NCBI GenBank assembly: GCA_001603005.1
Contig: LVAJ01000028.1
Span: 14,073-78,072 of the forward strand
Direction: 5' to 3'
Length of the DNA: 64,000 nt
Source of the DNA: Clostridiales bacterium Firm_04
Lineage (GTDB): Bacteria > Bacillota > Clostridia > Oscillospirales > Ruminococcaceae
The notes under the pieces were generated by a model, which ran no database searches, was not told the DNA's origin, and worked only from the letters and a program-made list of their open reading frames with translations. Positions 39,713 to 61,689 of this stretch are shown here, in pieces; within the stretch, counting starts at the first letter, position 1, and every line of letters begins with the position of its first letter. A program made the position numbers and the translations under genes.

Positions 39713-39829
39713 TTTCCATTCCTTTCTACTGTGAAATGCACAGTTCCGGATTCTGGCTGCCGGAGAAAACGGCAGTACGGTTTCGCAGGGAGTAATATTT
39801 TGTAGAAATATTGCCCTGCGGATAATGCC

Positions 39830-40078: not shown

Positions 40079-40129
40079 GGTACAGAACTGACACAAATTC
40101 CGCCGGATGCGGCAGATAAGGAGCGATCT

Positions 40130-41319: not shown

Positions 41320-44300
41320 ATGAAGAAACACCATTGTCAAATCCGGAAGATCAGCGGCGGGCTCATGGGCGCGCTGATGATGCTGTCCGGAACGGTCATG
41401 CCGTATCAGGGGACCGCGCTGACGCGCACAGAGCTGGTCATCGGCTGGACTGCGGAAGCGGCGGCAGCTGCGGCAGAGACAGCGGATGCAGTTCCGGCAG
41501 CAGCCACGACTGCGCCTGCGACCACTGCAAAATCCACAGCAACGACTGCGAAACCCGCGGCAACGACTGCCAAGCCTGCTGCAACGACCGCATCGCCGGC
41601 TGTGACTGCGCCTGCGGGGAAATCGGACGGTTTTGTGTTCGGGATCGAGGAAGATCATGCTGTGCTCAAGCAGTATACCGGCGCGGCAGCTTCGGTCACG
41701 GTTCCGGCATCGTATCAGGGTGTTCCGGTCACGGAGATCGAATTGCGCGCATTCCAGAATAACAAAAATCTGACAGCAGTCGAGATCCCTGCAAGTGTGA
41801 AAAAAATCGGCGACTATTCGTTCATGGGCTGCGATGCGCTTGCAAAGGTGACGCTTTCCGAGGGACTGGAAACACTCGGATACTACGCATTTCAAGGCAC
41901 GCCGGTTACGGAGATCTGCATTCCGGCTACAATCAAATCGGCAGATGAGCCGTTTGCCGGCTGCAAGTCGCTCAGCAAGGTGACATTCGGCAAGGGGATC
42001 ACAAAGATCCCGGATTATTTGTTTGAAAACTGCAGCGGACTGACAACGGTCACGATTCCGGAGACTGTCACGGAGATCGGCAGCCGTGCATTCCAGAACA
42101 ACAAAAAGCTGACGGCGATCGAGATTCCTGCGAATGTGAAAAAAATCGGCGGCTATGCATTCATGGGCTGCGATGCGCTTGCAAAGGTGACGCTCTCCGA
42201 GGGACTGGAAACACTCGGATACTACGCATTTCAAGGTGCGCCGATCACGGAGATCTGCATGCCGGCATCGCTGAAAGAAACCGACGAACCGTTTGCCGGA
42301 TGCAAGTCGCTCAGCAAGGTGACATTCGGCAGGGGGATCACAAAGATCCCGGATTATTTGTTTGAAAACTGCAGCGGACTGACAACGGTCACGATTCCGG
42401 AGACCGTCACGGAGATCGGCAGCTGCGCGTTCCAGAACAACAAAAAGCTGACGGCGATCGAGATTCCTGCGAATGTGAAAAAAATCGGCGGCTATGCGTT
42501 CATGGGCTGTGATGCGCTAGCAAAGGTGACGCTTTCCGAGGGACTGGAAACACTCGGATACTACGCATTTCAAGGTGTGCCGATCACGGAGATCTGCATT
42601 CCGGCTACAATCAAATCGGCAGATGAGCCGTTTGTCGGATGCAAGTCGCTCAGCAAGGTGACATTCGGCAAGGGGATCACAAAGATCCCGGATAATTTGT
42701 TTGAAAACTGCAGCGGACTGACAACGGTCACGATTCCGGAGACCGTCACGGAGATCGGCAGCTGCGCGTTCCAGAACAACAAAAAGCTGACGGCGATCGA
42801 GATTCCTGCGAATGTGAAAAAAATCGGCGGCTATGCGTTCATGGGCTGCGATGCGCTTGCAAAGGTGACGCTTTCCGATGGACTGGAAACACTCGGATAC
42901 TACGCATTTCAAGGCACGCCGGTTACGGAGATCTGCATTCCGGCTACAATCAAATCGGCAGATGAGCCGTTTGTCGGATGCAAGACGCTCAGTAAGGTGA
43001 CATTCGGCAAGGGGCTCACAAAGATCCCGGATAATTTGTTTGAAAACTGCAGCGGACTGACAACGGTCACGATTCCGGAGACCGTCACGGAGATCGGCAG
43101 CTGCGCGTTCCAGAACAACAAAAAGCTGACGGCGATCGAGATTCCTGCGAACGTGAAAAAAATCGGCGGCTATGCATTCATGGGCTGCGATGCGCTTGCA
43201 AAGGTGACGCTTTCTGAGGGGCTGGAAACACTCGGATACTACGCATTTCAAGGTGCGCCGATCACGGAGATCTGCATTCCGGCTTCAATCAAATCGGCAG
43301 ATGAACCGTTTGTCGGCTGCAAGTCGCTCAGCAAGGTGACATTCGGCAAGGGGATCACAAAGATCCCGCAGGATCTGTTCTACTATTGCAGCGGACTGAC
43401 AGAGATCACGGTTCCGGAGACCGTCAAGGAGATCGGAACCCGTGCGTTTGCAAGCTGCAAAAATCTGAAAAAGGTGACGCTCTCCGAGGGGCTGGAAACA
43501 CTCGGATACTACGCATTTCAAGGTGCGCCGGTCACGGAGATCAGCATTCCGGCTACAATCAAATCGGCAGATGAGCCGTTTGTCGGATGCAGCGCGCTCA
43601 GCAAGGTGACATTCGGCAAGGGGATCACAAAGATCCCGCAGGATCTGTTCTACTATTGCAGCGGACTGACAGAAATCACGGTTCCGGAGACCGTCAAGGA
43701 GATCGGAACCCGTGCGTTTGCAAGCTGCAAAAATCTGAAAAAGGTGACGCTTTCCGAGGGGCTGGAAACACTCGGATACTTTGCATTCAACAGCACGCCT
43801 GTCACGGAGATCTGCATTCCGGCTACAATCAAATCGGCAGACGAGCCGTTTGCCGGATGCAGCGCGCTCAGCAAGGTGACATTCGGCAAGGGCATCACGA
43901 AGATCCCGCAGGAGATGTTCAGCTATTGCAGCGGACTGACGGAGATCACGGTTCCGGAGACCGTCAAGGAGATCGGAACCCGTGCATTTGCAAGCTGCAA
44001 AAATCTGAAAAAGGTGACGCTTTCCGAGGGGCTGGAAACACTCGGATACTACGCATTTCAAGGTGCGCCGATCACGGAGATCATCATTCCGTCCACGCTG
44101 AAATCGGCAGATGAACCGTTTGCCGGCTGCAAAGATCTGACATATGCGCATTTTGCAGAGGATATGGTCAATGTACCGGCAAACATATTTCAGAATGCGG
44201 GCGGTCTGGAAATGGTGCAGCTTGCTTCGACCACAGCGTCGATCGGCGAGCATGCATTTGACAACTGCCGGAAGCTCAGCACGATCTATCCGGAAGATCT

Positions 44301-46968
44301 GCTGCCGGCATTCCGGAACACGACCTTTTCCAATTGCGATCAGCTTTACGATCCGCGGTTCAGCCCGCTCGACCGCACGGCATCGGGCATTACCGTCAAT
44401 TCTTCGCGCAGCTCCGTCAATGGACTGATGCATTTTACGGTCAAATACAAGCTGGATGAAAGAACGGCGGATCCGGTGCTGAACCTGAGCATGCCGGAAA
44501 CGCTGGTGCTGGTGCCGGAATCCGTCACCGGAACCGATCCGGATATGACGGTCGGCAACAAATCCGACAGCTTTCAGCTGAAAGCGCTGGAAGGCACGCT
44601 GCATTTCTCGGCAAGAATGCAGGCGGCGGGCAGCGCAAAGGTGCAGGCAGGCATGAACTTCAAGTTCCAGAACAGTGCATGGACGCAGACGATCGGGACG
44701 CTCATCGTGGATGCGCCGGCACTGACAGTCGGTGCGCCGGAGCAGGTGAACGGTCTGACCGCGCCGGTCAACGGCATCGCGGGCAGAGAGCAGCCTGTTG
44801 AGATCTATGTGAATGATACGCTTGCAGAGACCGTGACCGCGGATGCGTATACCGGAAAATACCGCGTGACGGTGCAGCTGCCGCAGGGCGATGACGGCGC
44901 GGTGTATCAGATCTATGCAAAGACTGCGGAAAACAAAACGGATGCGGTCGCGGTCACATACAGCAAGAACGCGCCGACTGTGCAGAATGTCTGGATGAAT
45001 TACAACGGACATGCGGGGAAGGACATGGATATTACCGCGGTACTGCTGGAAGGAAAATCGCCGGTGATCTCCTATAATCCTGCGTATCCGCTGCGGTTTA
45101 CGGTCAAAGCTGCCAATTCCGAGCTGATCGACAGAATGTTCGTGACCAGCACCAAAGGCGATGACATCCGGTATCTGGAAGCATTCTATGATGCGGAAAA
45201 CGATGTCTGGGTGACGGAAAACAGCTTTTTTGTACCGGAAAATCACAGCTATGTGCCCGGTTCGCTGAATATCAGCATTCTCGAAAAGGAGCCGGATCTG
45301 ACCGTTTCGGAAGAAGATGCGGATGCATACGACAAGATGATGCATCTGCCGGATTCGACGCCGCAGGCATACCGCGACAACAGCACGGTCAATGTCCTTG
45401 CGAAAACGGATTCTGCATTCGTTGCAGAGGTCAATTTCACAGACGGCACAGAGGATCACGAATTTGTCTACTGCTCCGAGCGCACCAATACCGTGATGCT
45501 GGACGGCGTGACCGTCACGGCAGAGGAGATCGCAATGGATCCGGAAAAATACGGCTATCACAGAGTTCCGGCATCCGCAGTCAACGGCGATGAAAACTGT
45601 GTCTATTATCAGCGCTGGGATACGGGTGCGGATATGGTCATCGGGCTGTCGCTGGAAGCGCTCACGGGCGTTACGGATGCGCTGGTCGGAGAATATACCG
45701 GCTATTCTCTGCTGGAAAGAATTGAGGGCGACGCAAAGGACACTGTGGAAGCCTGCTTTGTCAACAATTTCGTCGTCGCAACCGGACAGAATTTCTTCAA
45801 TTCGCTGACCGGTGACGTGTACGGCGATTACGCGAATTATCTGCGCATCATGGGCGATTCGGTGCATCTGGTATCGCGCCTGTATGATGCAAGAGACAAT
45901 GAACTGCAGCAGTGTGCAGCGGTGATGCTGTTTGCGGCACAGGTCATCGTGGACAGCGGCGGACTGGAGCTGATGCTCCTGACCTGTGGCGTGACTGCGC
46001 CGGTCGCATTTGTTGTGACGGTCGGCTCCTGCGTGCTGCTGACCTATGCCGGCACATGGCTGGATGAATGGATCGCTGGTGACAGCATGTTCTCGTCCGG
46101 CGGCATCCTGCGCTTTATCATTGATCCGAGCGGCATTGTCTATGAGGCGGTGCTGAGCAATCCGGTCGAGGACGCAGAGGTGCGGATCTATTACCGCGAT
46201 CCGGAGACCGGAAAACAGACAGAATGGAATGCCGCGGATTACGAACAGGAAAATCCGCTGCGCACCGACACGGACGGCGCCTATGCATGGGATGTTCCCG
46301 AGGGCGAATGGAAGGTCACGGCATCGAAGGAAGGCTATGAGAAAGCGGAGAGCGACTGGATGACGGTTCCGCCTGTCCGGACGGATGTCGGGCTGGCACT
46401 GGTCGATCGCAGTGCGCCGGCGATTGCAGAGATCACCGAACAGCAGAACGGACTGCTCGTGCAGTTCAGCAAGTTCGCGGACATTGCGACAGCGGATGAA
46501 AAGAGCATCGTGCTGAAAAATGCAAAGGACTATGCGGTGAAGCCGGTTCTGCATGCAGAGGACGATGCCTATACCGATCAGTTCCTGCTCGAGGGCGATT
46601 TTGCTGCGGGAAGCTATACGCTTGCTGTGACCGAAGCGCTCAGGAGCTATGCCGGAACCCCTGCTGCCGCTGCGGAGCAGACGTTCACGGTGAAGCTGAA
46701 TGCGCTGCAGAAGGGCGACATCGACGGCGACGGCATCATCAGTGTTGTGGATGCGCAGCTTGCGCTGGTCGAATATGTCACGGTGATGAGCGGCAAGGAC
46801 GGCACATTCAGTGCTGCACAGACAAAAGCCGGCGATATTGACGGAAGCGGCAGCGTCGGCGTGGATGATGCACAGAATATCCTGATGTACTATGTTGAAA
46901 ACAGAGTCGCTGGCAAGACGGTCTCTTGGGAGGAGCTGCTGGAACGTCAGAATCCGGCTGCTGCATAA
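41320..46968 (+). CDS. Giant (1882 aa) secreted BspA-type LRR protein with Ig-like/unknown middle region and C-terminal dockerin
   Basis: RBS AAGGAGG. Signal peptide, A/T-rich linker, then ~9 near-identical LRR super-repeats (VTLSEGLETLGYYAFQG...KIGGYAFMGCDALAK). C-terminal dockerin GDIDGDGIISVVDAQLAL and GDIDGSGSVGVDDAQNIL. Confidence 0.88.
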   Translation: MKKHHCQIRKISGGLMGALMMLSGTVMPYQGTALTRTELVIGWTAEAAAAAAETADAVPAAATTAPATTAKSTATTAKPAATTAKPAATTASPAVTAPAGKSDGFVFGIEEDHAVLKQYTGAAASVTVPASYQGVPVTEIELRAFQNNKNLTAVEIPASVKKIGDYSFMGCDALAKVTLSEGLETLGYYAFQGTPVTEICIPATIKSADEPFAGCKSLSKVTFGKGITKIPDYLFENCSGLTTVTIPETVTEIGSRAFQNNKKLTAIEIPANVKKIGGYAFMGCDALAKVTLSEGLETLGYYAFQGAPITEICMPASLKETDEPFAGCKSLSKVTFGRGITKIPDYLFENCSGLTTVTIPETVTEIGSCAFQNNKKLTAIEIPANVKKIGGYAFMGCDALAKVTLSEGLETLGYYAFQGVPITEICIPATIKSADEPFVGCKSLSKVTFGKGITKIPDNLFENCSGLTTVTIPETVTEIGSCAFQNNKKLTAIEIPANVKKIGGYAFMGCDALAKVTLSDGLETLGYYAFQGTPVTEICIPATIKSADEPFVGCKTLSKVTFGKGLTKIPDNLFENCSGLTTVTIPETVTEIGSCAFQNNKKLTAIEIPANVKKIGGYAFMGCDALAKVTLSEGLETLGYYAFQGAPITEICIPASIKSADEPFVGCKSLSKVTFGKGITKIPQDLFYYCSGLTEITVPETVKEIGTRAFASCKNLKKVTLSEGLETLGYYAFQGAPVTEISIPATIKSADEPFVGCSALSKVTFGKGITKIPQDLFYYCSGLTEITVPETVKEIGTRAFASCKNLKKVTLSEGLETLGYFAFNSTPVTEICIPATIKSADEPFAGCSALSKVTFGKGITKIPQEMFSYCSGLTEITVPETVKEIGTRAFASCKNLKKVTLSEGLETLGYYAFQGAPITEIIIPSTLKSADEPFAGCKDLTYAHFAEDMVNVPANIFQNAGGLEMVQLASTTASIGEHAFDNCRKLSTIYPEDLLPAFRNTTFSNCDQLYDPRFSPLDRTASGITVNSSRSSVNGLMHFTVKYKLDERTADPVLNLSMPETLVLVPESVTGTDPDMTVGNKSDSFQLKALEGTLHFSARMQAAGSAKVQAGMNFKFQNSAWTQTIGTLIVDAPALTVGAPEQVNGLTAPVNGIAGREQPVEIYVNDTLAETVTADAYTGKYRVTVQLPQGDDGAVYQIYAKTAENKTDAVAVTYSKNAPTVQNVWMNYNGHAGKDMDITAVLLEGKSPVISYNPAYPLRFTVKAANSELIDRMFVTSTKGDDIRYLEAFYDAENDVWVTENSFFVPENHSYVPGSLNISILEKEPDLTVSEEDADAYDKMMHLPDSTPQAYRDNSTVNVLAKTDSAFVAEVNFTDGTEDHEFVYCSERTNTVMLDGVTVTAEEIAMDPEKYGYHRVPASAVNGDENCVYYQRWDTGADMVIGLSLEALTGVTDALVGEYTGYSLLERIEGDAKDTVEACFVNNFVVATGQNFFNSLTGDVYGDYANYLRIMGDSVHLVSRLYDARDNELQQCAAVMLFAAQVIVDSGGLELMLLTCGVTAPVAFVVTVGSCVLLTYAGTWLDEWIAGDSMFSSGGILRFIIDPSGIVYEAVLSNPVEDAEVRIYYRDPETGKQTEWNAADYEQENPLRTDTDGAYAWDVPEGEWKVTASKEGYEKAESDWMTVPPVRTDVGLALVDRSAPAIAEITEQQNGLLVQFSKFADIATADEKSIVLKNAKDYAVKPVLHAEDDAYTDQFLLEGDFAAGSYTLAVTEALRSYAGTPAAAAEQTFTVKLNALQKGDIDGDGIISVVDAQLALVEYVTVMSGKDGTFSAAQTKAGDIDGSGSVGVDDAQNILMYYVENRVAGKTVSWEELLERQNPAAA
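41740..44130 (+). repeat. Intragenic tandem DNA repeats: 5 units of 339 bp then 3-4 units of 270 bp
   Basis: The landmark AAGGTGACGCT(T/C)TCCGA(G/T)GG(A/G)CTGGAAACACTCGGATACT recurs near 41842, 42181, 42520, 42859 and 43198 (period 339), then near 43468, 43738 and 44008 (period 270). Adjacent 339-bp units differ at only a few positions. Confidence 0.9.
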
Positions 46969-53118: not shown

Positions 53119-53694
53119 ATTTCAATCCACGCCCCTGTGCATGGGGTGATGCGGAAAGACCTACACGGTGACGGCAGGTTCTCAATTTCAATCCACGCCC
53201 CCTGCGAAGGGGGCGACCGCTGCTTCTCTCGTGTTCCTCGGCGTCCGGCTCTGATTTCAATCCACGCGCCTGTGCATGGGGCGACATAGCCGAGTGTTCC
53301 TGTCAGGACGGCAAGGCACATATTTCAATCCACGCCCCCTGTGCAGGGGGCGACGTCATAAGATCCAATATCATTAAAATCATTATGATTTCAATCCACG
53401 CCCCCTGTGCAGGGGGCGACAACCATGGGAGCCGGTCGAGACAGACACCAAAGAAAATTTCAATCCACGCCCCCTGTGCAGGGGGCGACTCTTGCTGTTG
53501 GTTGGTATCGTTTCTATATTTTTGTTATTTCAATCCACGCCCCCTGTGCAGGGGGCGACCTCTGTGCATACGGATACTTTTTGTGCATCTGATAATTTCA
53601 ATCCACGCCCCCTGTGCAGGGGGCGACCGCAGATGATGCAGGCTTTTATGCAGTTCATGCAATTTCAATCCACGCCCCCTGTGCAGGGGGCGAC
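53119..53694 (-). CRISPR. Type I-C CRISPR array, 9 repeats / 8 spacers, leader at the cas2-proximal (high-coordinate) end
   Basis: The 32-33-nt repeats start at 53119, 53185, 53254, 53322, 53388, 53457, 53527, 53595 and 53662. The minus-strand consensus is GTCGCCCCCTGCACAGGGGGCGTGGATTGAAAT. Spacers are 33-37 nt. The three lowest-coordinate repeats are degenerate, marking the trailer end. Confidence 0.97.
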
Positions 53695-53857: not shown

Positions 53858-54148
53858 TCAGAGCACCAGCGGCGCATCCGCCGTCAGCGTCTCCTTGGCA
53901 CCGTGATGCTCCGCCTTTGCCCGCTGACTGTCATTCAGAAAGTAAAAGCGGAGAGAATCCTTTTCCGGCTCGATCTCGCCGAGCAGCTTCGCTTTCAGCA
54001 TCCGCCACTGCGCCGCATCAGCCTGACATTCAAAGACGGAATTTTGCACGCGGATCCCGTAATTCACGCAGATCTTTGCAATGCGCCGCAGCCGCTTCCG
54101 TCCTGCGGCATCTTCGGTATTGACATCATACGTAATCAGTATAAACAT
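53858..54148 (-). CDS. cas2: CRISPR-associated endoribonuclease Cas2
   Basis: 96 aa, MFILITYDVNTEDAAGRKRLRRIAKICVNYGIRVQNSVFEC... Confidence 0.95.
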   Translation of the reverse strand: MFILITYDVNTEDAAGRKRLRRIAKICVNYGIRVQNSVFECQADAAQWRMLKAKLLGEIEPEKDSLRFYFLNDSQRAKAEHHGAKETLTADAPLVL

Positions 54149-54151
54149 TGC

Positions 54152-55183
54152 TCATTTCCATAAAAAAGGCGGATATGCATCCAGATCGCCGCGCAGATAC
54201 CGCGCAAGCAGCAGCGCCTTCACATAGGGCAGCATGCCCCACTGCACCTTTTCATCGAGGAACGGATGCCGGATCTCATCATCCTTGCGCTTCTGCCATG
54301 CGGTGAGAAATGTCCGGCGCCCGTCGTCATGCAGCAGCACGGCACCGTCTTCCCGCAGATCAAACTGCTCCGGCGAAATCGTGCGCTTATTGATCAGCGT
54401 CAGCACAAAACGGTCGCACATCAGCGCGCGGAACTCCTCGACCAGATCCAGCGCAAGCGAGCGCCTGCCCGGACGGTCGGTGTGCAGAAATCCGACATAG
54501 GGATCCAGCCCGACCGCTTCCAGTGCGGATGTACACATGCCCGTGCAGAGCGCATATGCAAACGAAAGCAGCGCATTCACGCGGTCAAGCGGCGGACGCC
54601 GGCTTCTGACCGTGAACCGGAAATCGTCCTTTTGCTGAAGAATCATGTCATCAAAGACGGAGAAATACACGCTTGCCGCCTCGCCCTCAATGCCGCGCAG
54701 ACTGTCCGCGTCCGGCGCAGACATTGCCGTCTGAATGCTGTTTTGCAGATAGGAGGATTTTTCTTCAAATTTTGCGAGATCAATGCGCATGGCATGGTCA
54801 CGCATGGTGCGTTCGAGCGTCCAGCGGCTGTTATACAGCTTCGCTGCGATCATATTCCGTGCAATGCCGAGGCTTTCTGCGGGGCTGTTCGCAATGCGGT
54901 ACTGCGTCCGCCGCAGCAGAACATTCCCGTTGACTTCGCCTTCCGCGCGCGCCAGAAATCTGCCCGAACGCGATAGAAAGACCAGCTCCCGCGATTCGGA
55001 AACGCATTTCCCCATGAGTGCCGGACTCGCGCCGGCGCAGCCGAATGCCATGATGCGTTCCAGATTGTGCAGCGGCATTCTCGCAATTTCCTTATGATTT
55101 TCGGAGACCACAACATTTTCCCCGTCCAGCGAGAGGTATCTGTCCGGCGTTGTGAGATAGAGTGTATTGAGCAGCTTTTTCAT
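54152..55183 (-). CDS. cas1: CRISPR-associated endonuclease Cas1 (subtype I-C)
   Basis: 343 aa. MKKLLNTLYLTTPDRYLSLDGENVVV..., ...FAYALCTGMCTSALEAVGLDPYVGFLHTDRPGRRSLALDLVEEFR. Confidence 0.95.
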   Translation of the reverse strand: MKKLLNTLYLTTPDRYLSLDGENVVVSENHKEIARMPLHNLERIMAFGCAGASPALMGKCVSESRELVFLSRSGRFLARAEGEVNGNVLLRRTQYRIANSPAESLGIARNMIAAKLYNSRWTLERTMRDHAMRIDLAKFEEKSSYLQNSIQTAMSAPDADSLRGIEGEAASVYFSVFDDMILQQKDDFRFTVRSRRPPLDRVNALLSFAYALCTGMCTSALEAVGLDPYVGFLHTDRPGRRSLALDLVEEFRALMCDRFVLTLINKRTISPEQFDLREDGAVLLHDDGRRTFLTAWQKRKDDEIRHPFLDEKVQWGMLPYVKALLLARYLRGDLDAYPPFLWK

Positions 55184-55845
55184 GGATCACCGCCTTTCAG
55201 TGCTTCTGCCAGATATTCTGCCGCACTGCGCTTTTTTTCCAGCACGGGCAGACAGATGTCTTTTAACGAGCAGGCATTGCAGGCTTTTGTGCGCTTTACC
55301 TTCGGTGTATGCTGCCTGCGGTAGAGTGCGTGCATTTCCGCGAGCATATCCTTTGTTTTCTGACGCAGCGCATCATCCAGCGGAACCGTCTGCCGGCGGC
55401 GCGTTTCGCCGTAATAGAGATATGCCTGCGGGATCACGCAGCAGAGCATTTCTTCCAGACACATCGCCTGCGCGCAGAGCTGCACGGCATCGCAGTCGTC
55501 CTCTTTTGGCTTTCCGCGCTTATATTCCACCGGAATCACCTGATATGTGCTGTCCAGACCGTTTACGCGAATGCCGTCCGCGGATCTGTGAAACTCCACA
55601 ATATCGCATTCACCGCTGATGCCCAGCTCTGCAGACGCGACCTGCATGGCGCGTGTGATGATGATATCCCCGCGCTTTTCACGGAAATCGCTGTCATGCG
55701 CACGTTCATGCATGAGTCTGCCGTCGGCGGTGCGGAAATTTTCCGCCCACTGCTGTTCAATGTGGATCAGTGCCCACTGCCGGCGGCAGAATGCAAAATG
55801 CTGCAAACCCGAAAGCATCAGGTAGTCTTCCTCGCGGAACATCAC
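55180..55845 (-). CDS. cas4: CRISPR-associated exonuclease Cas4
   Basis: 221 aa. N-terminal Cys (FAFCRRQWAL) and C-terminal CxxC...C (KACNACSLKDIC). Carries the RecB-like motif DIVEF...VIPVEYKRGK. Confidence 0.92.
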   Translation of the reverse strand: MMFREEDYLMLSGLQHFAFCRRQWALIHIEQQWAENFRTADGRLMHERAHDSDFREKRGDIIITRAMQVASAELGISGECDIVEFHRSADGIRVNGLDSTYQVIPVEYKRGKPKEDDCDAVQLCAQAMCLEEMLCCVIPQAYLYYGETRRRQTVPLDDALRQKTKDMLAEMHALYRRQHTPKVKRTKACNACSLKDICLPVLEKKRSAAEYLAEALKGGDP

Positions 55846-56696
55846 ATCAGGTCGATGATCTCCGGTCTGACGCCGTCGATCTCTGCAAGCGTGATCTCGT
55901 AATCGTCAAAGCTGTGCGGCGCGGAAACGCCGTCTTTCAGCTCGATTTTCAGCGCACGGTGAATTTTCGCGGAGCTGACCTTCGGCGTTTTGCAGTCATG
56001 CTCCCACCAGTACACGCGGCAGACTTCCATGCTGCCTTCCGGTCTTGCCGAGGATGCGTCGTTCTCGAACAGCGTGCAGAGCGCTTCCTTGATCTTCGCG
56101 GCGTCTGCATCGGAGAAGCCGGTCTTTTCTGCAAGCTGACAGTTGATGCTGCCGTGAATGACATACAGACCGAATGCAACGCGGTGCTTCATGCCCATGG
56201 TATCGGATGCTTTGCTTTCTTTTCCGCTCTCGCCGTTGACGCTTTTTGTGATCTGCATGCTGATGATATCGACAGGGGAGATACTGACCGCCTGCTGAAT
56301 GCTGACCGGACCGCGCACGCCGACAGAGACCGGATCGCCCTTGAATGCAAACACCTGTCCGAAGCTGCGGACGTCGATCCATTCCTCGCAGGCTGCCTTT
56401 GCAAAGGCGTCGCGGTCGGTGTTTTTGCCGTTCATGATCGCTTTGAGCGCAGCATTCTGACCGGCGCGGGCATGCAGGGAATCGCAGCCGTCATCGCAGC
56501 GGTCATCGGACTGCACAAAGATCTTCTCGCCCATATCCTGCAGGCGGTTGCGGATCTTGCGCTTGATGCAGACGTCTGAAATTTCGCCGCAGCCGTCGAA
56601 GGCTTCGCGCGGGCGGTTGCCGTTCAGCGGATCGCCGTTTGGATTTGCATTCGTTGCGGTGATGATCACCGAAAAATCAATCTTATGATTCAGCAT
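55842..56696 (-). CDS. cas7: Type I-C Cascade subunit Cas7c (Csd2)
   Basis: 284 aa, MLNHKIDFSVIITATNANPNGDPLNGNRPR... Confidence 0.92.
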   Translation of the reverse strand: MLNHKIDFSVIITATNANPNGDPLNGNRPREAFDGCGEISDVCIKRKIRNRLQDMGEKIFVQSDDRCDDGCDSLHARAGQNAALKAIMNGKNTDRDAFAKAACEEWIDVRSFGQVFAFKGDPVSVGVRGPVSIQQAVSISPVDIISMQITKSVNGESGKESKASDTMGMKHRVAFGLYVIHGSINCQLAEKTGFSDADAAKIKEALCTLFENDASSARPEGSMEVCRVYWWEHDCKTPKVSSAKIHRALKIELKDGVSAPHSFDDYEITLAEIDGVRPEIIDLM

Positions 56697-56699: not shown

Positions 56700-57065
56700 T
56701 TAGTCCTCCTCTTTTTTCTTGTAGATTTCCGCATTGAAATGATGATAGCCGAGCAGATATGCCGATGTCAGCGGGCTGTTATCCGCAAACGCATGCAGAT
56801 CGAATTTTGACATAACATCATTCAGCATTTTTTCGTAGTAGATACTTTTCGCACCGAGTTTCATCATGTACACGCGAAGCTGCGATTCGATTTTTGTCCA
56901 TGTGGTTGACGGACGGCTTGCGAACATACTCCAGTAGCGCTTTGCATTGGTGACGCGTCCGCCTTTGTCCGCGTCGTCATAGGACGCATATTCGGCAGCA
57001 TCCGCAATTGCAAGCAGGCAGCCGAACAGATAGCTGCGGTCGGTCTCATTCGGATCATAAGCCAT
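56700..57065 (-). CDS. cas11: Nested small subunit Cas11c: internal in-frame start within cas8c
   Basis: Minus strand reads AAAGGAGtcacctctATG at 57065, a strong SD with 8-nt spacing inside the cas8c frame. It gives a 121-aa product MAYDPNETDRSYLFGCLLAIADAAE... sharing the cas8c stop. Internal translation of Cas11 from cas8c is established for type I-C systems. Confidence 0.6.
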   Translation of the reverse strand: MAYDPNETDRSYLFGCLLAIADAAEYASYDDADKGGRVTNAKRYWSMFASRPSTTWTKIESQLRVYMMKLGAKSIYYEKMLNDVMSKFDLHAFADNSPLTSAYLLGYHHFNAEIYKKKEED

Positions 57066-58529
57066 AGAGGTGACTCCTTTCTTTTGTTCGATATTCTTCC
57101 TGCGGATCATGCCGCAGGCGGTTTCCAGAACGGTGCGGTGATTGTAGCTGTGCTCATATGCGAGCGGATAGGATGCTTTTTTCACCAGATTCTGCACGAT
57201 ATCTGCGGGAATGTGCCGCCCCTGTGTGATGCAGGGCAGCAGCCGCAGAACATTGTCCTTGACGGTCTCCGGCTTTGCTTCGAGAAAGCCCTTGCCGTTT
57301 TCCATGCCGTAAGCGCAGTTGATGATCTCCCTGACGGCAAAGGAATTGGGGCGCGAGACCTTTTGCTTTGCATAAAACCGCAGCACAGAGGTTTCCGCAT
57401 GCCATTTGCACAGCTGTTCCAGCAGACGGGAATGTTCCAGTTCTTCGTACATCGCAACGGAAAGCCGTCCGGTCGTTGCGGCATCTACGCCCATCAGCAT
57501 GACCTTGCTGTCAATTGCAAATGCCTTTGTACCGAAGATCTGTCTGCGGAGAAAATCGCGGTAAAGCGGCTCGGTATCCGGTTTGATCTCCGCGCCGAAG
57601 TTTTCATCGTCGTCCGGATCGCAGGCAGCGCTCAGAACATCGGGGGGATCGGTAAGACTGCTTGTCCAGACCAGCAGCGTCATGGTATCAAACGGGATCC
57701 CCTGCCGCTGAATCAGCCAGCGCAGTGCATTGTGCATTTTCTGCGAGAAATCGTAGCTGACGCGTAGTGCCTGTTTATCATCTAAGAATCTTCCTGCATA
57801 GGTGAGTGGCTGATTATTTATGCAAATCAATTTCGCATTTGCACATCTTGGAATGATTTGCTTAGAATGTTCTGTATTATCCATTATGGGCAAATGTTTT
57901 CCGGTTGCATAGCATAGATCGCTGGGGGCATTGGATTGTAAGCTGAGCGCATATTCTATATAGCAATTATACAGTGATTGATCGAGCCAAGTTCGACTTT
58001 CAGCGAACAAATCCGTGTATTGAACAACAAATCGAACAAATTGACTGATTGTCTTTTGATTATCAGCTGTCTTTTCTTTTATTGTAATGCAATTCGATTC
58101 AATAAGGTCACCTAATAAGGTGCGTTTCGTTAAATATGAATATACAGCTGAAACAGCAGGATGGGTATATTGACTGTTGTTCCATTTTTCAAGCTGATCA
58201 ATATAAGCCTGATAAAACTTTCCATACTTGGAATCATCAAAATACTGATCTGCATCGCCCGCAAGATAAAACAATTTATCTGCAAAAGGATGCGGCGGCG
58301 GAAATCTGCCTGATCGCTTTCCAGATGCTGCTGAAACGGGGATAATTGTATTCTTCCCATCCTCTAGCTGCCTTGCCGAAACAAAGCTGCCGTCCTGCTT
58401 CAGCGTGACCTCGATCTGTGCATTTGCGGTCGAATGCGAGACCGGCAGCAGCACCTTTCCGTCATCGGAATCCATGCCGCACTGCTGCTCATAGACCTTA
58501 TAAAGCTCCTGTGTCCAGCTCAAAATCAT
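56700..58529 (-). CDS. cas8c: Type I-C Cascade large subunit Cas8c (Csd1)
   Basis: ~609 aa sitting between cas5 and cas7. N-terminus M(I)LSWTQELYKVYEQ. Start is uncertain: ATG at 58529 or TTG two codons later. Overlaps the cas5 3' end. Confidence 0.88.
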   Translation of the reverse strand: MILSWTQELYKVYEQQCGMDSDDGKVLLPVSHSTANAQIEVTLKQDGSFVSARQLEDGKNTIIPVSAASGKRSGRFPPPHPFADKLFYLAGDADQYFDDSKYGKFYQAYIDQLEKWNNSQYTHPAVSAVYSYLTKRTLLGDLIESNCITIKEKTADNQKTISQFVRFVVQYTDLFAESRTWLDQSLYNCYIEYALSLQSNAPSDLCYATGKHLPIMDNTEHSKQIIPRCANAKLICINNQPLTYAGRFLDDKQALRVSYDFSQKMHNALRWLIQRQGIPFDTMTLLVWTSSLTDPPDVLSAACDPDDDENFGAEIKPDTEPLYRDFLRRQIFGTKAFAIDSKVMLMGVDAATTGRLSVAMYEELEHSRLLEQLCKWHAETSVLRFYAKQKVSRPNSFAVREIINCAYGMENGKGFLEAKPETVKDNVLRLLPCITQGRHIPADIVQNLVKKASYPLAYEHSYNHRTVLETACGMIRRKNIEQKKGVTSMAYDPNETDRSYLFGCLLAIADAAEYASYDDADKGGRVTNAKRYWSMFASRPSTTWTKIESQLRVYMMKLGAKSIYYEKMLNDVMSKFDLHAFADNSPLTSAYLLGYHHFNAEIYKKKEED

Positions 58530-59271
58530 CACCTCCCAGCAGATCCAGCTCCGGCTCATTCAGACCGGAGAAATTCCCGTGTTCCTGCCCGAACGGCTTG
58601 ATCTCCATTGCCTTGATGTGCCGCTTGACGGTGCAGTCCTTCGGCGGCAGAAATCCGATCACGCCGTTTTTCATGACCGGCGTCCAGAACCGGACAGTCA
58701 GCAGTCCCTTGTCGTCCGCGTTTTCGGCTTCGTCCGCATAGGTGAAGCCGTGCAGCATCAGGCTGTACGGGATCTCGCCCGCGTGATCGTAGGCACCTTT
58801 GCCGCTGCCGAATACACAAGGCTCCACATAGCCCTGACATTCGCGCGTGCCGAGGAAAATGTCGCGTCTGCCGCCGCGCTCGATCATGCGCCTTGCAATG
58901 TTGTGATGCTTGTGCTCATTGCGGTCGCATGCCAGTTCGGGACGGTTCATGTTCCATTCAAAATGCGCGCGCACCTGATAGCACACATCTTCGAGATAGG
59001 TGTAGTAGGCGAGGTCGTTGCCGCCGCCGTATTTGATCGTGCGGATGCCCTTGCGCACGGTGCGGATCGGGTTCATCACGCGCACAGCGTCGATATACCA
59101 GATCAGCGTCGGCTTCCAGTAGACGCTGTGCAAAATACCTTTCAGTGCTTCGTAGGTCGGGATCATGTAGGTGCAGCGTTCGCCGCCCGGCCGCGTCAGC
59201 ACATCAGTGAACAGCGCATATTTTCCGCTGACCTGAAATTCAACGGTGTTGCGGTGCTTCGGGTTGTTCAT
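58498..59271 (-). CDS. cas5: Type I-C Cas5c (Cas5d) pre-crRNA endoribonuclease
   Basis: 257 aa, ...VEFQVSGKYALFTDVLTRPGGERCTYMIPTYEALKGILHSVYWKPT... Confidence 0.92.
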   Translation of the reverse strand: MNNPKHRNTVEFQVSGKYALFTDVLTRPGGERCTYMIPTYEALKGILHSVYWKPTLIWYIDAVRVMNPIRTVRKGIRTIKYGGGNDLAYYTYLEDVCYQVRAHFEWNMNRPELACDRNEHKHHNIARRMIERGGRRDIFLGTRECQGYVEPCVFGSGKGAYDHAGEIPYSLMLHGFTYADEAENADDKGLLTVRFWTPVMKNGVIGFLPPKDCTVKRHIKAMEIKPFGQEHGNFSGLNEPELDLLGGDDFELDTGAL

Positions 59272-59301: not shown

Positions 59302-61689
59302 TTACAGCAATAATACTTCGTGTTCGCCGCCTTCCAGCGTAATGCCGTAATCGGCATGATAAAAGCGTTTTTCAAGGATCTGCACGGAACAGTTCGGCAA
59401 GTTGCCGCAGTTCAGCGTATAAACCGCAGATTCACGGTCAAGCTTCTGCTTTGTGCCTTCGTAGATGCCGACGGCATATTTCTGTGCCTGCCGCAGCAGT
59501 CTGACGGTTTCCGCGGGGTTCTGCTCGCTGCCGAGCGCGGCTATGATCGCTTCTGCCTCTGCATTGTACGGCACGATCACATTTGTTGTGCGGGAGTCGA
59601 TCACCTGAAACAGACTGCCGGCTTTTTTGAACGCCTGCCCGCAGAATTGCAGATGCGGATTCCGCCTTTCAGTGCGGCGCCGGTTCAGCGACAGCAGGTT
59701 CAGAATATCCTGATCGTTCGTATCGTTCAGCGGATACCGCAGCAGATTTCTCGTTTCACCGCGTACATTCCGCTTCTGTGCATTCTGATAGAGCTTCCGG
59801 AAATAGCCGGACATCAGCGGAACGCTCAGAAAATCGGTATCCTCCGGCATATCAAGGATCTGCTCAGAGATTTTCTGTGCTTCTCCGATCTCCGCAAGAC
59901 TGCCGAGCTTTTCTTCATATAAATGCAGCACATACACGGGGCATTCTCTGTGATATTCGCCGTTCCGGTTGCAGCGTCCTGCCGCCTGTGCGGCATTGTC
60001 CATGCCTGCGAGCGAACGCACCACGCATCCGAAGGAAATGTCTACGCCTGCCTCGATCAGCTGCGTTGTGACACAGATCACAGGCTCCTGCGCGGAAAGC
60101 ATCCGCTTCATTTCGGCGATCGCTTCGCGCCGGTGCTGCGGACACATGCCGGTGCTCAGGTGAAAAACGGATGCGCCGTCCGTTTCGCGCAGCAGATGAT
60201 ACAGTTCCTTTGCGGATGCCTTCGTATTGACGACGACCAGCAGACTGCCGTTTTCCGCAAACTGCGTCCGGCAGAAATCGGCGGCTTCTTCATAGGAATA
60301 TCTGCCTTTTTTCTGCTGATACAGCAGCTTTGTGCGGCGGAATGCTTCAAAATCCGCTGCGGTATCGCCGGTCATGCTGCTGTTTTCATCCAGCAGCAGC
60401 GGGAACGCATCCAGCAGATCAAACGGCGGCTGTGTCGCAGAGCAGAGCACGACCGTGCTGCCGCAGATCCGCGACAGAAAATTCATTGCCAGATTGAACA
60501 TGTATACGCATTTCAGCGGGACGGACTGCACCTCGTCGATGATGATGACGGAACGGGACAGCCTGTGCATGCGCCGGACGGCACCGCTCTGTCCCGAAAA
60601 CAGCGCATTGAGAAACTGCACCATGGTCGTCGCGATCACCGGCGCATCCCATTTTTCTGTCCGCAGTTCATATGCATGCAGTCTGTCGTCGTTTTCCGAA
60701 ACCTCTGCAAGCATATTGGAATGGTGCTCCAGAAATGCCGATTCACCGGCTATTTCGCGGATCACATCGCTGTTCTGCTCCAGAATCGACATGAACGGCG
60801 CAATATAAATGATCTTTTCGACCGGATGCCGCCTTGCGTATTCAATTGCAAACCGCAGGGAAGAAAGCGTCTTGCCGCCGCCTGTCGGGACGATCAGTTT
60901 ACAGATCTGCACGTCATTGCATGCAAATGCTGCACAGCGGTCGGAAATGCTTTTGCGCTGCCGGGAGATCGCATCGGTTTTTCCGGAGAACGAATCCAGC
61001 TTCAGCTGCATCCGCTCCTGCATGCGCTGCCAGAGCTTTTCCGTATCATATTCCGCTTCTGTTCGGGTGCCGGACATAAAATCGGCTGTGTTTGTCCGGT
61101 CGGCGTCGATCAGGACGGATTGCAGCAGCCGTTCCAGTAATCCGAGATAAAATGCAAATGTTTCCCTGCTGTCTGCGGACATCTCCCGCAGCTTTTTCCG
61201 GAGCGGCGTGACCTCTGCTTCGGCAGCGGACAATGCAGTGCCGAGATCCGGCAGCCATGTTTCGCGTTGCAGATTCTGCATGATCTCTGCATAATACGAT
61301 TCTTTTGCGGTGCGGATCCGGAACACATCCTCTGCAGCGTCGTTTACCCAGTCATGCAGACCGTGATGCGACAAAATCACCCTGCCGATCAGTCCGGCGG
61401 TTTTCTGCATTTTGGGATCGGAGAACGGTTCTGCAAATTCTGCGAGATATTTCGCGCCTGCAAAGCTGTGATCCAGTTCGCCGCGCCGGAACGAATCCGG
61501 CTTGTGAATATAGGTGTTGAAATCGGCTGTCAGCTTTCCGATGTCATGCAGAAGGGCTGCCAGTTCCGCGGTTCTGGCAAGTCCGGCAGGTGCGCCGTAT
61601 GCGGCTGCACGTTCTGCGGTTTCAAGGCAGTGTTCTGCGACGGTCTGTTCGCAGCCGTCAGCAGGGCGGATATGTGCGGTGTTCTGCAT
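59302..61689 (-). CDS. cas3: Cas3 HD-nuclease/helicase
   Basis: 795 aa. HD domain (LAALLHDIGK, ILSHHG) and SF2 helicase motifs (PTGGGKT, IIIDEVQ, CSATQP, TQLIEAGVDI). Confidence 0.95.
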   Translation of the reverse strand: MQNTAHIRPADGCEQTVAEHCLETAERAAAYGAPAGLARTAELAALLHDIGKLTADFNTYIHKPDSFRRGELDHSFAGAKYLAEFAEPFSDPKMQKTAGLIGRVILSHHGLHDWVNDAAEDVFRIRTAKESYYAEIMQNLQRETWLPDLGTALSAAEAEVTPLRKKLREMSADSRETFAFYLGLLERLLQSVLIDADRTNTADFMSGTRTEAEYDTEKLWQRMQERMQLKLDSFSGKTDAISRQRKSISDRCAAFACNDVQICKLIVPTGGGKTLSSLRFAIEYARRHPVEKIIYIAPFMSILEQNSDVIREIAGESAFLEHHSNMLAEVSENDDRLHAYELRTEKWDAPVIATTMVQFLNALFSGQSGAVRRMHRLSRSVIIIDEVQSVPLKCVYMFNLAMNFLSRICGSTVVLCSATQPPFDLLDAFPLLLDENSSMTGDTAADFEAFRRTKLLYQQKKGRYSYEEAADFCRTQFAENGSLLVVVNTKASAKELYHLLRETDGASVFHLSTGMCPQHRREAIAEMKRMLSAQEPVICVTTQLIEAGVDISFGCVVRSLAGMDNAAQAAGRCNRNGEYHRECPVYVLHLYEEKLGSLAEIGEAQKISEQILDMPEDTDFLSVPLMSGYFRKLYQNAQKRNVRGETRNLLRYPLNDTNDQDILNLLSLNRRRTERRNPHLQFCGQAFKKAGSLFQVIDSRTTNVIVPYNAEAEAIIAALGSEQNPAETVRLLRQAQKYAVGIYEGTKQKLDRESAVYTLNCGNLPNCSVQILEKRFYHADYGITLEGGEHEVLLL

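What the first reader, a model, noticed from the sequence alone, without database searches (positions are those of the whole stretch)
57781..58260. AT-rich, compositionally foreign block inside the N-terminal half of cas8c
Hand counts over eight consecutive 60-nt lines (57781-58260) give 176/480 = ~37% G+C. The flanking lines of the same gene give 57-58% (57541-57600; 58381-58440). The transition is abrupt on both sides, roughly 57770 and 58350, corresponding to Cas8c residues ~60-250. In type I-C Cascade the N-terminal part of Cas8c contacts the PAM and is a frequent anti-CRISPR target. The pattern suggests that a domain-sized segment was replaced by recombination with a low-GC donor, producing a mosaic large subunit with possibly altered PAM specificity or Acr sensitivity.
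Basis: seen in the sequence. Interest (0 to 1): 0.65.

Follow-up and report, generated by a model that had tools for sequence, protein, structure and literature searches.

The report
Swapped PAM-reading cassette in cas8c
A 600-base AT-rich stretch inside the CRISPR gene cas8c is a foreign replacement for the part of the protein that reads the short DNA motif (PAM) next to a target, and the same piece has been exchanged repeatedly among related gut and rumen bacteria, giving natural allele pairs for testing how phages and CRISPR systems co-evolve.

Summary
It lies in a type I-C cas8c gene (minus strand, 56700-58559).

A metagenome contig (L001) is 98.9% identical across the cas3 end, cas5c, cas8c and the cas7 start. 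The exception is window 57763-58365 (Cas8c residues 66-266), which is about 53% identical in DNA and 46% in protein. L001 has normal GC there, so the window carries a replaced cassette.

This is not a one-off. Two deeply divergent cassette forms (about 40% protein identity) switch at least 14 times on the backbone tree. Two further same-species pairs share the breakpoints. One cassette is 99-100% identical in DNA inside backbones only 86-90% identical. All seven non-canonical cassettes among 81 loci have lower GC than their own gene; none of the 74 canonical ones dips as far as the five clearest.

The cassette includes the PAM-contacting glycine loop and the wedge loop. It is intact, folds like Cas8c, and is under purifying selection.

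The only protospacer found has the canonical TTC PAM. I therefore favour a retained PAM with a changed inhibitor-facing surface, but this is untested. No donor was found.

The parts
57763..58365 (-). Replaced cassette: Cas8c residues 66-266, window-like 'type A' form, 38.6% GC, GC3 0.31
   Evidence: The DNA alignment to L001 is 98.9% identical outside (31 mismatches in 2761) and about 53% identical inside. This is the lowest-GC region of the window.
56700..58559 (-). cas8c/csd1 ORF (619 aa as the longest ORF; the database protein P0001 is 607 aa and relatives start at MILSWT/MSWT, residue 11-13)
   Evidence: PF09709 at 4e-98 and TIGR01863 at 282 bits. The AF2 model has pLDDT 88. The top Foldseek matches are 8dfs_I and 8dej_I, with 8g9t_K aligning best (TM 0.68/0.71).
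58305..58319 (-). Codons K81-R82-S83-G84-R85, the predicted PAM-interaction (glycine) loop tip. It is followed by the PPPHP motif specific to this cassette form.
   Evidence: The profile alignment puts D. vulgaris Cas8c G71-N72-G73 on this loop. The canonical form reads GRTSGI-CAMP here.
57831..57869 (-). Codons H231-K243 (HSKQIIPRCANAK), the predicted equivalent of the strand-separating wedge loop. The canonical form reads HPSKIRNTGDKAK.
   Evidence: The profile alignment places the Dvu Q212 loop here. The loop differs completely between the two forms. The placement is uncertain by 1-2 residues.
58366..58436 (-). Conserved 5' flank (HSTANAQIEVTLKQDGSFVSARQL), the upstream homology arm for the exchange
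   Evidence: This flank is 98-100% identical to L001 right up to the junction. Most of its N-terminal part (HSTANAQIEVTL) is invariant across 16 proteins of both forms.
57702..57761 (-). Conserved 3' flank (VSYDFSQKMHNALRWLIQRQ), the start of a long helix and the downstream homology arm
   Evidence: Identity to L001 returns to 100% from about 57762. The same junction motif occurs in three independent pairs. It corresponds to helix 258-275 of the model.
58498..59271 (-). cas5c
   Evidence: PF09704 and TIGR01876. It is 95-100% identical to L001.
59302..61689 (-). cas3 (HD nuclease plus helicase)
   Evidence: Its 3' end is 97-100% identical to L001.
55842..56696 (-). cas7c
   Evidence: PF05107 and TIGR02589.
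53858..55845 (-). cas4-cas1-cas2 adaptation module
   Evidence: PF01930, PF01867 and PF09827.
53119..53694 (-). CRISPR array: 33-nt repeat GTCGCCCCCTGCACAGGGGGCGTGGATTGAAAT, 8 spacers, with degenerate trailing repeats
53628..53661 (-). Leader-proximal spacer S1. Its protospacer in an IMG/VR contig is preceded by 5'-TTC.
   Evidence: 30 of 34 nt match at L082 3424-3453, with TTC at 3421-3423.

Best explanation
The AT-rich block is a roughly 600-bp allelic cassette that replaced the resident version of the same segment of cas8c. The replacement occurred by homologous recombination (gene conversion) through two highly conserved flanks, ...SARQL/NTIIPV upstream and VSYDFSQKMHNALRWL downstream. These steps are shown.

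- The window's backbone lineage carried the canonical 'type B' cassette.
- The window now carries a divergent, low-GC 'type A' cassette from an unsampled donor.
- The exchange is recent relative to backbone divergence (backbone dS 0.03).
- The same segment has been exchanged many times among Oscillospiraceae/Ruminococcus type I-C systems.
- The cassette encodes the body of the Cas8c N-terminal domain, including the PAM-interaction glycine loop, a phosphate-contact loop and the wedge loop.
- Both forms have the same predicted fold, and the type A form evolves under purifying selection.

These steps are inferred. The swapped protein still assembles with the unchanged Cas5, Cas7, Cas11 and Cas3 and still reads a TTC PAM. 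What changes is the exposed PAM-proximal DNA-binding surface, where the net charge differs by about +8. This is the surface that the known I-C anti-CRISPRs occupy. The two forms would then be maintained and shuffled because each escapes inhibitors, or other binders, adapted to the other form.

I put about 0.9 on the recombination origin, about 0.65 on a retained TTC PAM, and about 0.4 on inhibitor escape as the selective driver.
For: **Same backbone, different cassette.**
- Window vs L001: 98.9% nt identity outside and about 53% inside; protein identity 96/46/99% in residues 1-70/71-263/264-619.
- L084 vs L083: about 99% identity over 10 kb of syntenic chromosome except the cassette.
- L085/L086 vs L087: 96.4% identity outside. 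Breakpoints fall at codons 59-65 and 251-266 in all three pairs.

**Same cassette, different backbone.** The L084, L090 and L091 cassettes are 99-100% identical in DNA, while their backbones are 86-90% identical.

**Phylogeny.** Type A needs at least 14 changes on the backbone tree and 1 on the cassette tree; random labelling gives 24.

**Direction of the change.** The backbone's nearest relatives P0002, P0022 and P0024 are all type B, and type B is the majority form across the family.

**Composition.**
- In 74 type-B loci the block-minus-rest GC difference is +0.003 (sd 0.023).
- In the seven non-canonical loci it is -0.041 to -0.111.
- In the window it is -0.152, with a GC3 difference of -0.346.

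**Function retained.**
- The ORF is intact.
- Type A cassettes compared with each other give dN/dS 0.10-0.20.
- AF2 pLDDT is 88-89, with the same order of helices and strands in both forms.
- Type A loci carry long arrays of up to 73 repeats.

**Location.** Dvu G71-N72-G73, K92/K94 and Q212 align inside the cassette.

**PAM.**
- The S1 protospacer is preceded by TTC.
- R82, S/T83, G84 and K95 are kept in both forms.
- cas4-cas1-cas2 is not part of the exchanged unit, and cas3 is 97-100% identical between partners.
Against: - No donor was found. The closest cassette in 5.8 billion clustered proteins is 66% identical. Nothing closer appears in the 1.84-billion representative library, GTDB genomes, IMG/VR or the metagenome contig collection.
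- No locus was found where a non-canonical cassette matches its host's GC, so a 'low-GC donor' is inferred from composition only.
- The PAM evidence is a single protospacer, and that spacer could pre-date the swap.
- No Acr was identified or tested, so the selective driver is conjecture.
- The window's exact allele is known from one contig only, so an assembly chimera cannot be excluded for this particular instance.
- The wedge-loop mapping rests on a profile alignment at about 16% identity.
Confidence: 0.85

Rival explanations
1. PAM switch: the cassette swap changes which PAM Cascade accepts, re-targeting interference.
For: Both sequence-reading elements lie in the cassette and differ between forms. 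The glycine loop is KRSGRFPPPHP against GRTSGI-CAMP. The wedge loop is SKQIIPRCANAK against SKIRNTGDKAK. Hu et al. propose the loop motif as a predictor of I-C PAM.
Against: The one protospacer found for the window's newest spacer has TTC. The loop tip keeps Arg-Ser-Gly, and K95 is invariant. Cas4-Cas1-Cas2 select the PAM at acquisition, yet they are not co-exchanged. In the window/L001 and L084/L083 pairs only the cassette differs within what the contigs cover, namely cas3 (its 3' end only in L001), cas5c, cas8c and the start of cas7. A mismatch between the acquisition PAM and the interference PAM would be costly.
Confidence: 0.18
2. Neutral mosaicism: cas operons in these bacteria recombine frequently, and the cassette exchange has no phenotypic consequence. 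The low GC simply marks where the piece came from.
For: Other mosaic patches occur in the cas8c 3' part and in cas7 between L084 and L090/L091, where identity drops to 0.44-0.69. Hybrid cassettes with other breakpoints exist, such as P0007 and P0026.
Against: The two forms are only about 40% identical yet each is conserved internally. They persist side by side within at least three species-level backbones, with breakpoints confined to the same two motifs. Such a pattern is more typical of maintained alternative alleles than of random conversion tracts. The exchanged unit coincides with the functional PAM/DNA-clamp module.
Confidence: 0.3
3. Assembly chimera: the contig joins reads of two organisms through shared k-mers at the conserved junction motifs, so the mosaic gene does not exist in any cell.
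For: The exact protein is recorded from a single contig. The source looks like a metagenome-assembled genome of an uncultured Oscillospiraceae. Both junctions lie in highly conserved sequence.
Against: The same architecture is seen in independent assemblies from different projects: L084 (JGI), L016 (NCBI MAG), L085 (NCBI), L086 (ENA), L090 (Logan) and L091 (ENA). It would need two switches within 600 bp into a partner whose own backbone was never assembled. The reading frame is preserved, including a 2-codon length difference at the 5' junction.
Confidence: 0.04
4. Intrinsic constraint or local decay: the segment is AT-rich because of a compositional or regulatory requirement (an internal promoter or a structural need), or because of relaxed selection, and it was inherited vertically.
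For: All relatives with the window-like cassette also show a dip.
Against: The 99%-identical backbone relative has no dip, with a 51.5% GC cassette. The 74 canonical cassettes show none as deep as the five clearest non-canonical ones. The phylogeny is incongruent. dN/dS is 0.1-0.2, so the segment is not decaying. Promoter-like sites are not enriched, 4 found against 2.1 +/- 1.4 expected.
Confidence: 0.02

Closest known systems
Type I-C Cas8c (Csd1) large subunit of Cascade, as solved for Desulfovibrio vulgaris (8DEJ, 8DFS) and Neisseria lactamica (8G9T, 8G9U)
   Same: There is a full-length family match and the same operon. The predicted fold matches along the whole length (TM up to 0.71). The N-terminal domain carries a glycine PAM loop, a phosphate-contact loop and a wedge loop. 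The C-terminal part aligns with the separately translated Cas11c chain from M499 onward.
   Different: Sequence identity to the solved proteins is only 14-18%. The window's allele has a one-residue-longer, proline-rich PAM loop (KRSGRFPPPHP) and a wedge loop unrelated in sequence to that of its own closest relatives. This module is a recombinant insert of foreign composition.
Cas9 PAM-interacting-domain (PID) variation between near-identical orthologs. One example is GeoCas9 strain L300 vs ATCC 7953 (PMC6282205). The Nme1/Nme2/Nme3Cas9 case is recalled from memory (Edraki et al. 2019) and was not read here.
   Same: The backbone is nearly identical while the PAM-contacting module is strongly divergent. 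Pressure from inhibitors that bind this module has been proposed as the driver.
   Different: Cas9 is a class 2 single-protein effector and this is a class 1 multi-subunit one. In the Cas9 cases the PAM changes. Here the only data point says the PAM is kept. Here the exchange is also documented as recurrent, in both directions, with shared breakpoints and a compositional signature.
Modular shuffling and mosaicism of cas operons by recombination (general knowledge, e.g. Makarova/Koonin reviews; PMC3150331 describes Cas proteins as rapidly evolving)
   Same: Horizontal exchange within CRISPR-Cas loci, with phylogenies that disagree between parts of the locus.
   Different: The known cases concern whole genes or whole modules, such as adaptation versus effector. 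Here the unit is a sub-genic, domain-sized cassette with fixed ends inside one gene.
Allelic cassette polymorphisms at host-parasite interfaces, such as phage receptor-binding-protein tips or surface-antigen alleles (comparison from general knowledge)
   Same: Two or more deeply divergent alternative forms are flanked by conserved recombination arms, kept side by side within species and moved between lineages.
   Different: This cassette is an intracellular DNA-recognition module of an immune effector. No dedicated diversification machinery (invertase, retroelement or silent copies) is present in the window.

Membership tests
Type I-C Cas8c/Csd1 | Full-length match to the curated family models above their cutoffs | tested here: met
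   PF09709 at 329.9 bits (cutoff 27), covering residues 19-612. TIGR01863 equivalog at 282.4 bits (cutoff 218.65).
Type I-C Cas8c/Csd1 | Operon cas3-cas5c-cas8c-cas7c-cas4-cas1-cas2 without cas6, next to an array | tested here: met
   All seven genes lie in this order on the minus strand, followed by a 33-nt-repeat array. No Cas6 family hit was obtained among the seven genes scanned.
Type I-C Cas8c/Csd1 | Three-dimensional fold of solved Cas8c, N-terminal domain included | tested here: met
   AF2 model with pLDDT 88.3. Foldseek gives 8dfs_I at E 2.7e-22 and 8g9t_K at TM 0.68/0.71 over about 630 columns.
Type I-C Cas8c/Csd1 | Internal Cas11c coding region at the 3' end of cas8c | tested here: inconclusive
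   Solved Cas11c chains (7kha_K, 9jhb_B) align from their residue 2 to window residues 500-618, directly after M499. Internal translation itself was not tested.
Type I-C Cas8c/Csd1 | 5'-TTC (TTY) PAM | tested here: inconclusive
   One protospacer (spacer S1, 30/34 nt) is preceded by TTC. Five other spacers gave no hit.
Recombinant (horizontally acquired) gene segment | Composition deviates from the host gene at synonymous sites | tested here: met
   GC3 is 0.31 against 0.64. This is 6.6 sd outside the distribution of 74 canonical loci.
Recombinant (horizontally acquired) gene segment | Sharp breakpoints against a near-identical relative | tested here: met
   Identity steps from 98-100% to about 53% and back at 58365 and 57763.
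Recombinant (horizontally acquired) gene segment | The segment's phylogeny is incongruent with the rest of the gene | tested here: met
   The segment's nearest relatives are P0019, P0006 and P0005 (61-66%). The backbone's nearest relatives are P0002, P0024 and P0022 (99-86%). Fitch counts are 14 against 1.
Recombinant (horizontally acquired) gene segment | An identifiable donor lineage | tested here: not met
   No cassette closer than 66% protein identity was found in any collection searched.
Inhibitor-driven diversification of a PAM-recognition module (as proposed for the Cas9 PID) | Near-identical effector backbones carrying divergent PAM-contact modules | tested here: met
   Three same-species pairs and seven backbone-matched protein pairs.
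Inhibitor-driven diversification of a PAM-recognition module (as proposed for the Cas9 PID) | Alleles differ in sensitivity to anti-CRISPR proteins | not testable with these tools
   This needs interference assays with Acrs. Only the location of known Acr footprints on Cas8c is available, from the literature.

The most novel reading that the evidence does not exclude
The two (or more) cassette forms of the Cas8c N-terminal domain are a balanced polymorphism shared across species. Anti-CRISPR or other inhibitor pressure maintains them. Bacteria escape inhibitors by swapping only the PAM-proximal surface module through gene conversion, while keeping PAM specificity, spacers, Cas3 and the adaptation genes. 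This would be a modular 'immune-escape cassette' inside a class 1 CRISPR effector, and the low-GC forms would mark a recently invading allele family.
Probability: 0.35. Interest if true: 0.8.

Novelty: new variant of a known kind. Interest (0 to 1): 0.62.

Why it matters
Cas8 is the subunit that decides whether Cascade engages a target, and it is the main landing site for anti-CRISPRs. These data supply naturally occurring, nearly isogenic allele pairs in which only the PAM-reading module differs. The pairs are window/L001, L084/L083 and L085/L087.

Such pairs are what is needed to test whether effector modules diversify to escape inhibitors. They also allow tests of how much of the N-terminal domain can be exchanged without breaking Cas3 recruitment, and of whether PAM readout tolerates very different loop sequences. 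Type I-C is used for long-range genome deletion, so interchangeable N-terminal-domain cassettes could also guide engineering of Acr-resistant or PAM-altered variants.

In my searches of the open literature I found no description of sub-genic cassette exchange in Cas8c.

Tried and rejected
- **Block-only word-index protein search.** It returned one 40% hit and not even the window's own protein, so it was uninformative.
- **Exhaustive HMMER search of the block against 1.84 billion cluster representatives.** It gave 860 hits with a best identity of 47%. The clade is probably represented by canonical-form proteins, so no donor emerged.
- **Donor hunt by back-translated patterns.** Single-cassette queries in GTDB genomes, IMG/VR and metagenome contigs found nothing. 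A type-A cassette alignment found nothing in IMG/VR and one distant 36% hit in the metagenome contigs. A phage-borne or plasmid-borne source was therefore not supported, though it is not excluded.
- **PAM inference.** Spacers S2-S5 and one L084 spacer had no IMG/VR match. The window's spacers found nothing in INPHARED, while the type-A arrays of L084 and L003 matched only CRISPR-repeat-like sequence in 'Bacteriophage sp.' records there. Spacers from all fetched loci against the one phage contig gave only 12-13-nt chance matches.
- **Direct sequence search of PDB.** It aligned only the Cas11-like C-terminus. A family profile was needed to reach the N-terminal domain.
- **Regulatory reading of the AT-rich block.** Promoter-like and terminator-like sites are not above shuffled expectation.
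- **Amino-acid composition alone as the cause.** This was rejected because the shift is largest at third codon positions.
- **Pseudogenisation.** This was rejected because the frame is intact and dN/dS is 0.1-0.2.
Full report
**1. The observation**

The hand count is exact. Across the 64-kb window, 480-nt windows average 55.3% GC (sd 4.35%). The global minimum of 35.6% is at 57811-58290, and the next lowest region anywhere is 42.5%.

The gene is a type I-C cas8c/csd1 on the minus strand at 56700-58559. It matches PF09709 at 4e-98 and the TIGR01863 equivalog above its cutoff. It lies in a complete cas3-cas5c-cas8c-cas7-cas4-cas1-cas2 operon followed by a 33-nt-repeat array.

The GC drop is strongest at third codon positions. 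GC3 is 0.23-0.42 in codons ~80-260 against about 0.55-0.80 elsewhere, and 0.31 against 0.64 for the cassette versus the rest. Codon usage is therefore foreign, not just amino-acid content.

**2. What it is: a replaced cassette**

The closest Cas8c in 5.8 billion clustered proteins is P0002. It is 96%, 46% and 99% identical in residues 1-70, 71-263 and 264-619.

Its contig, L001 (3.4 kb), aligns to the window at 98.9% nucleotide identity (31 mismatches in 2761). This covers the end of cas3, all of cas5c, both ends of cas8c and the start of cas7. The exception is window 58365 to 57763, where identity is about 53% and small indels appear.

L001's version of the segment has host-like composition: 51.5% GC and GC3 0.58. 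Backbone dS between the two is 0.031 and dN is 0.002. In the segment dN is 0.49 and dS is saturated.

The backbone's next relatives, P0022 and P0024, carry the L001-like form. The window's lineage is therefore the one that changed.

**3. It is recurrent**

An alignment of backbone-matched proteins shows two deep forms of the segment.

- **Type A (window-like):** ...SAASGKRSGRFPPPHPFADKLF ... MDNTEHSKQIIPRCANAKLIC...
- **Type B (canonical):** ...TEDSGGRTSGI-CAMPLADKLI ... TYKHPSKIRNTGDKAKLISSNDESGFTYRGRF...

The two forms are about 40% identical.

Seven backbone-matched protein pairs carry opposite forms. Backbone identity is given for each pair.

| Pair | Backbone identity |
|---|---|
| window / P0002 | 99% |
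| P0008 / P0054 | 98% |
| P0019 / P0088 | 96% |
| P0006 / P0070 | 95% |
| P0005 / P0059 | 93% |
| P0003 / P0062 | 88% |
| P0007 / P0053 | 87% |

At the DNA level, L084 (A) and L083 (B) are about 99% identical over 10 kb of syntenic chromosome (Tex, GIY-YIG, MatE, amidase, cas3, cas5c, cas8c), except for the cassette. L085/L086 (A) against L087 (B) behave the same way. In all three pairs the divergent tract runs from codons 59-65 to codons 251-266, ending in the same conserved motifs.

The reciprocal pattern also exists. The cassettes of L084, L090 and L091 are 99-100% identical in DNA, while their backbones are 86-90% identical.

On a neighbour-joining tree of the backbone (201 sequences), the type A state needs at least 14 changes. 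It needs 1 on the cassette tree, and random labelling gives about 24.

Further variants exist:

- Hybrid cassettes with a different 3' breakpoint (P0007/L003, P0026).
- A third form, 'type C' (L027, L043, L045).
- Scattered other loop variants.

**4. Composition across the family**

Among 81 loci with DNA (80 GTDB species representatives plus L001), 74 carry the canonical cassette. For these, block GC minus rest-of-gene GC is +0.003 (sd 0.023, range -0.037 to +0.058).

All seven non-canonical loci are lower than their own gene, by 0.041-0.111 in GC and 0.07-0.21 in GC3. The five clearest (types A and C) lie below the whole canonical range. The window is the extreme case at -0.152 in GC and -0.346 in GC3.

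Cassette GC3 rises with host GC3. This fits partial amelioration or different donors.

| Cassette GC3 | Host GC3 |
|---|---|
| 0.195 | 0.35-0.38 |
| 0.29 | 0.53 |
| 0.31 | 0.64 |

A dip does occur in relatives, but only in those carrying the foreign form, and with incongruent phylogeny.

**5. The donor is unknown**

The window's cassette is an outlier even within type A. It is 61-66% identical in protein and 65-67% in nucleotides to the others, which are 75-100% identical among themselves.

- Nothing closer exists among the top full-length hits.
- Nothing closer exists in an exhaustive search of 1.84 billion representatives, where the best hit is 47%.
- Nothing closer was found in GTDB genomes, IMG/VR or the metagenome contig collection.

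**6. What the cassette encodes**

A family profile aligns D. vulgaris Cas8c along its length at E 2.7e-31.

- The Dvu G71-N72-G73 loop falls on window K81-R85.
- Dvu K92/K94 falls on the AGDADQY loop.
- The Dvu Q212 wedge loop falls on window H231-K243.

According to the D. vulgaris work, N72 on a glycine loop and the Q212 wedge read and open the TTC PAM, and K92/K93 hold the backbone. AcrIF2 and AcrIC4 block exactly this site.

According to the N. lactamica work, the N-terminal domain is residues 1-259. R69 and the S70-G71-S72 loop tip, together with N92 and K95, contact the PAM duplex. The N-terminal domain also contacts the Cas3 helicase and receives its anchor loop. AcrIC8 and AcrIC9 bind the PAM-proximal region.

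The cassette is therefore almost the whole DNA-facing body of the N-terminal domain. The first 65 residues, a beta-sheet in the model, and everything from the long helix at VSYDFSQKMHNALRWL onward stay with the backbone.

AF2 models of the window's protein and of P0002 are both confident (pLDDT 88.3 and 89.1). They show the same succession of helices and strands through the cassette. The window's model matches solved Cas8c over its whole length.

Residues kept in both forms include R82, K95, H231, K243, N248 and G256-R257-F258. Net charge of the cassette differs: the window is -1 and P0002 is -9, and the form means are +0.4 and -4.9.

**7. Is it functional, and is the PAM changed?**

- The frame is intact.
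- Type A cassettes compared with one another give dN/dS of 0.10-0.20, like the backbone.
- Type A loci carry long arrays, with 73 repeats in L084.

The window's leader-proximal spacer matches an IMG/VR contig at 30 of 34 positions. The four mismatches are PAM-distal, and 5'-TTC lies immediately upstream. The neighbouring ORFs on that contig hit PHROG families of unknown function.

In the two pairs whose type-B contigs stop inside or just after cas8c (L001, L083), no difference beyond the cassette is seen in cas3, cas5c or the start of cas7. These contigs do not cover cas4-cas1-cas2.

With the Arg-Ser-Gly loop tip retained, I judge a retained TTC PAM more likely than a switch. This rests on one protospacer and on inference.

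**8. Mechanism proposed**

- **Shown:** homologous exchange of a domain-sized cassette through two conserved arms, occurring repeatedly and in both directions, with the non-canonical forms carrying a low-GC signature.
- **Inferred:** the exchange preserves Cascade assembly, Cas3 recruitment and PAM readout, and alters the exposed PAM-proximal surface. It is favoured because inhibitors that dock there, such as DNA-mimic Acrs, are form-specific.
- **Alternatives:** a true PAM switch, neutral mosaicism in a highly recombining locus (other mosaic patches exist), and, for this single contig, an assembly chimera.
- **Rejected:** a regulatory or compositional constraint and decay.

**9. Comparison with what is known, and novelty**

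The gene is a bona fide type I-C Cas8c, as the membership table shows. The behaviour resembles PID variation between near-identical Cas9 orthologs and the idea that Acr pressure drives it. Here, however, it occurs in a class 1 large subunit, with fixed breakpoints, documented reciprocity and probably no PAM change.

Searches of the open literature returned no description of such a cassette in Cas8c or other Cas8 proteins. These are keyword searches of an incomplete library, so prior work cannot be excluded.

I rate it a new variant of a known kind.

**10. Verdict**

The finding extends from a single mosaic gene to a recurrent cassette polymorphism of the PAM-recognition module. The functional consequence is untested.

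Noticed in passing
L085 9854-10805 and L086 6005-6950 (compare L087 5721-8722): The type-A loci L085 and L086 have no cas4-cas1-cas2 after cas7. A short array of 8-9 repeats follows directly. Their 96%-identical type-B partner L087 has the full adaptation module and 74 repeats.
   Followed up: partly
P0007/L003 and P0026 (cassette 3' end); window equivalent 57763-57830: These are hybrid cassettes. The 5' part and wedge loop are type A, but the 3' end is type B (AKIISANDTDGFTYRGRF). Exchange can therefore also resolve at the NAK|LIS motif, not only at VSYDFSQ.
   Followed up: partly
L027, L043, L045 (cas8c at about 5001-6870 in L027, 1466-3331 in L043 and 1289-3103 in L045): A third cassette form has DTGKAKxGxxPPP(Y/F)P and HPYQI(V/I) loops. 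It is also 7-9 GC points (GC3 17-21 points) below its own gene. L071, P0091, P0110 and P0114 carry still other wedge-loop sequences.
   Followed up: partly
L084 vs L090/L091, about 2420-2510 and 2870-3130 nt downstream of the cas5c start (cas8c 3' end and cas7): There are additional mosaic patches where nucleotide identity falls to 0.44-0.73 between otherwise 85-98% identical operons. Recombination in these I-C loci is not limited to the N-terminal-domain cassette.
   Followed up: no
window 53119-53321: The three promoter-distal repeats of the array are degenerate, with several substitutions and a 1-nt deletion each, as is usual for old array ends. The six leader-proximal repeats are identical.
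   Followed up: yes
window 58498-58559: The cas8c start is ambiguous. The longest ORF (ATG at 58559, 619 aa) overlaps cas5c by 62 nt. The database protein is 607 aa, and most relatives begin at MILSWT or MSWT (window residues 11-13). Residue numbers in this report follow the 619-aa ORF.
   Followed up: partly
window 57063-57065 (codon M499 of cas8c) and downstream: Solved Cas11c chains align from their second residue to the sequence right after M499 (MAYDPNETDRSYL...). This fits the known internal translation of the I-C small subunit from within cas8c.
   Followed up: partly
L082 3421-3457 (IMGVR_UViG_3300033463_000496): This is the protospacer for the window's newest spacer. It has a TTC PAM and four mismatches confined to the last four PAM-distal positions. 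It lies at the junction of two small minus-strand ORFs, and the neighbouring ORFs match PHROGs of unknown function.
   Followed up: partly
INPHARED records MT838487.1, MT838203.1, MT839601.1, MT836912.1: 'Bacteriophage sp.' contigs from human faeces match the I-C arrays of L084 and L003 in many short pieces. This looks like shared CRISPR repeats, meaning I-C-type arrays on contigs labelled as phage, and not protospacers.
   Followed up: no
window 41320-46968 (+) and 36773-39712 (-): One ORF is a 1882-aa protein made almost entirely of BspA-type leucine-rich repeats (15 matched stretches). The other is a 979-aa protein with RTX calcium-binding repeats and a C-terminal type I dockerin, pointing to a cellulosome-bearing Ruminococcus-like host.
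   Followed up: no
window 21424-21564 (-), 13723-13804 (-): An FMN riboswitch (109.7 bits) and a single tRNA are the only Rfam matches at gathering score.
   Followed up: no
window 39791-40270, 26651-27130, 8611-9090, 23791-24270: These are the next lowest-GC patches of the window (42.5-44.0%). They are much milder than the cas8c cassette and were not examined.
   Followed up: no
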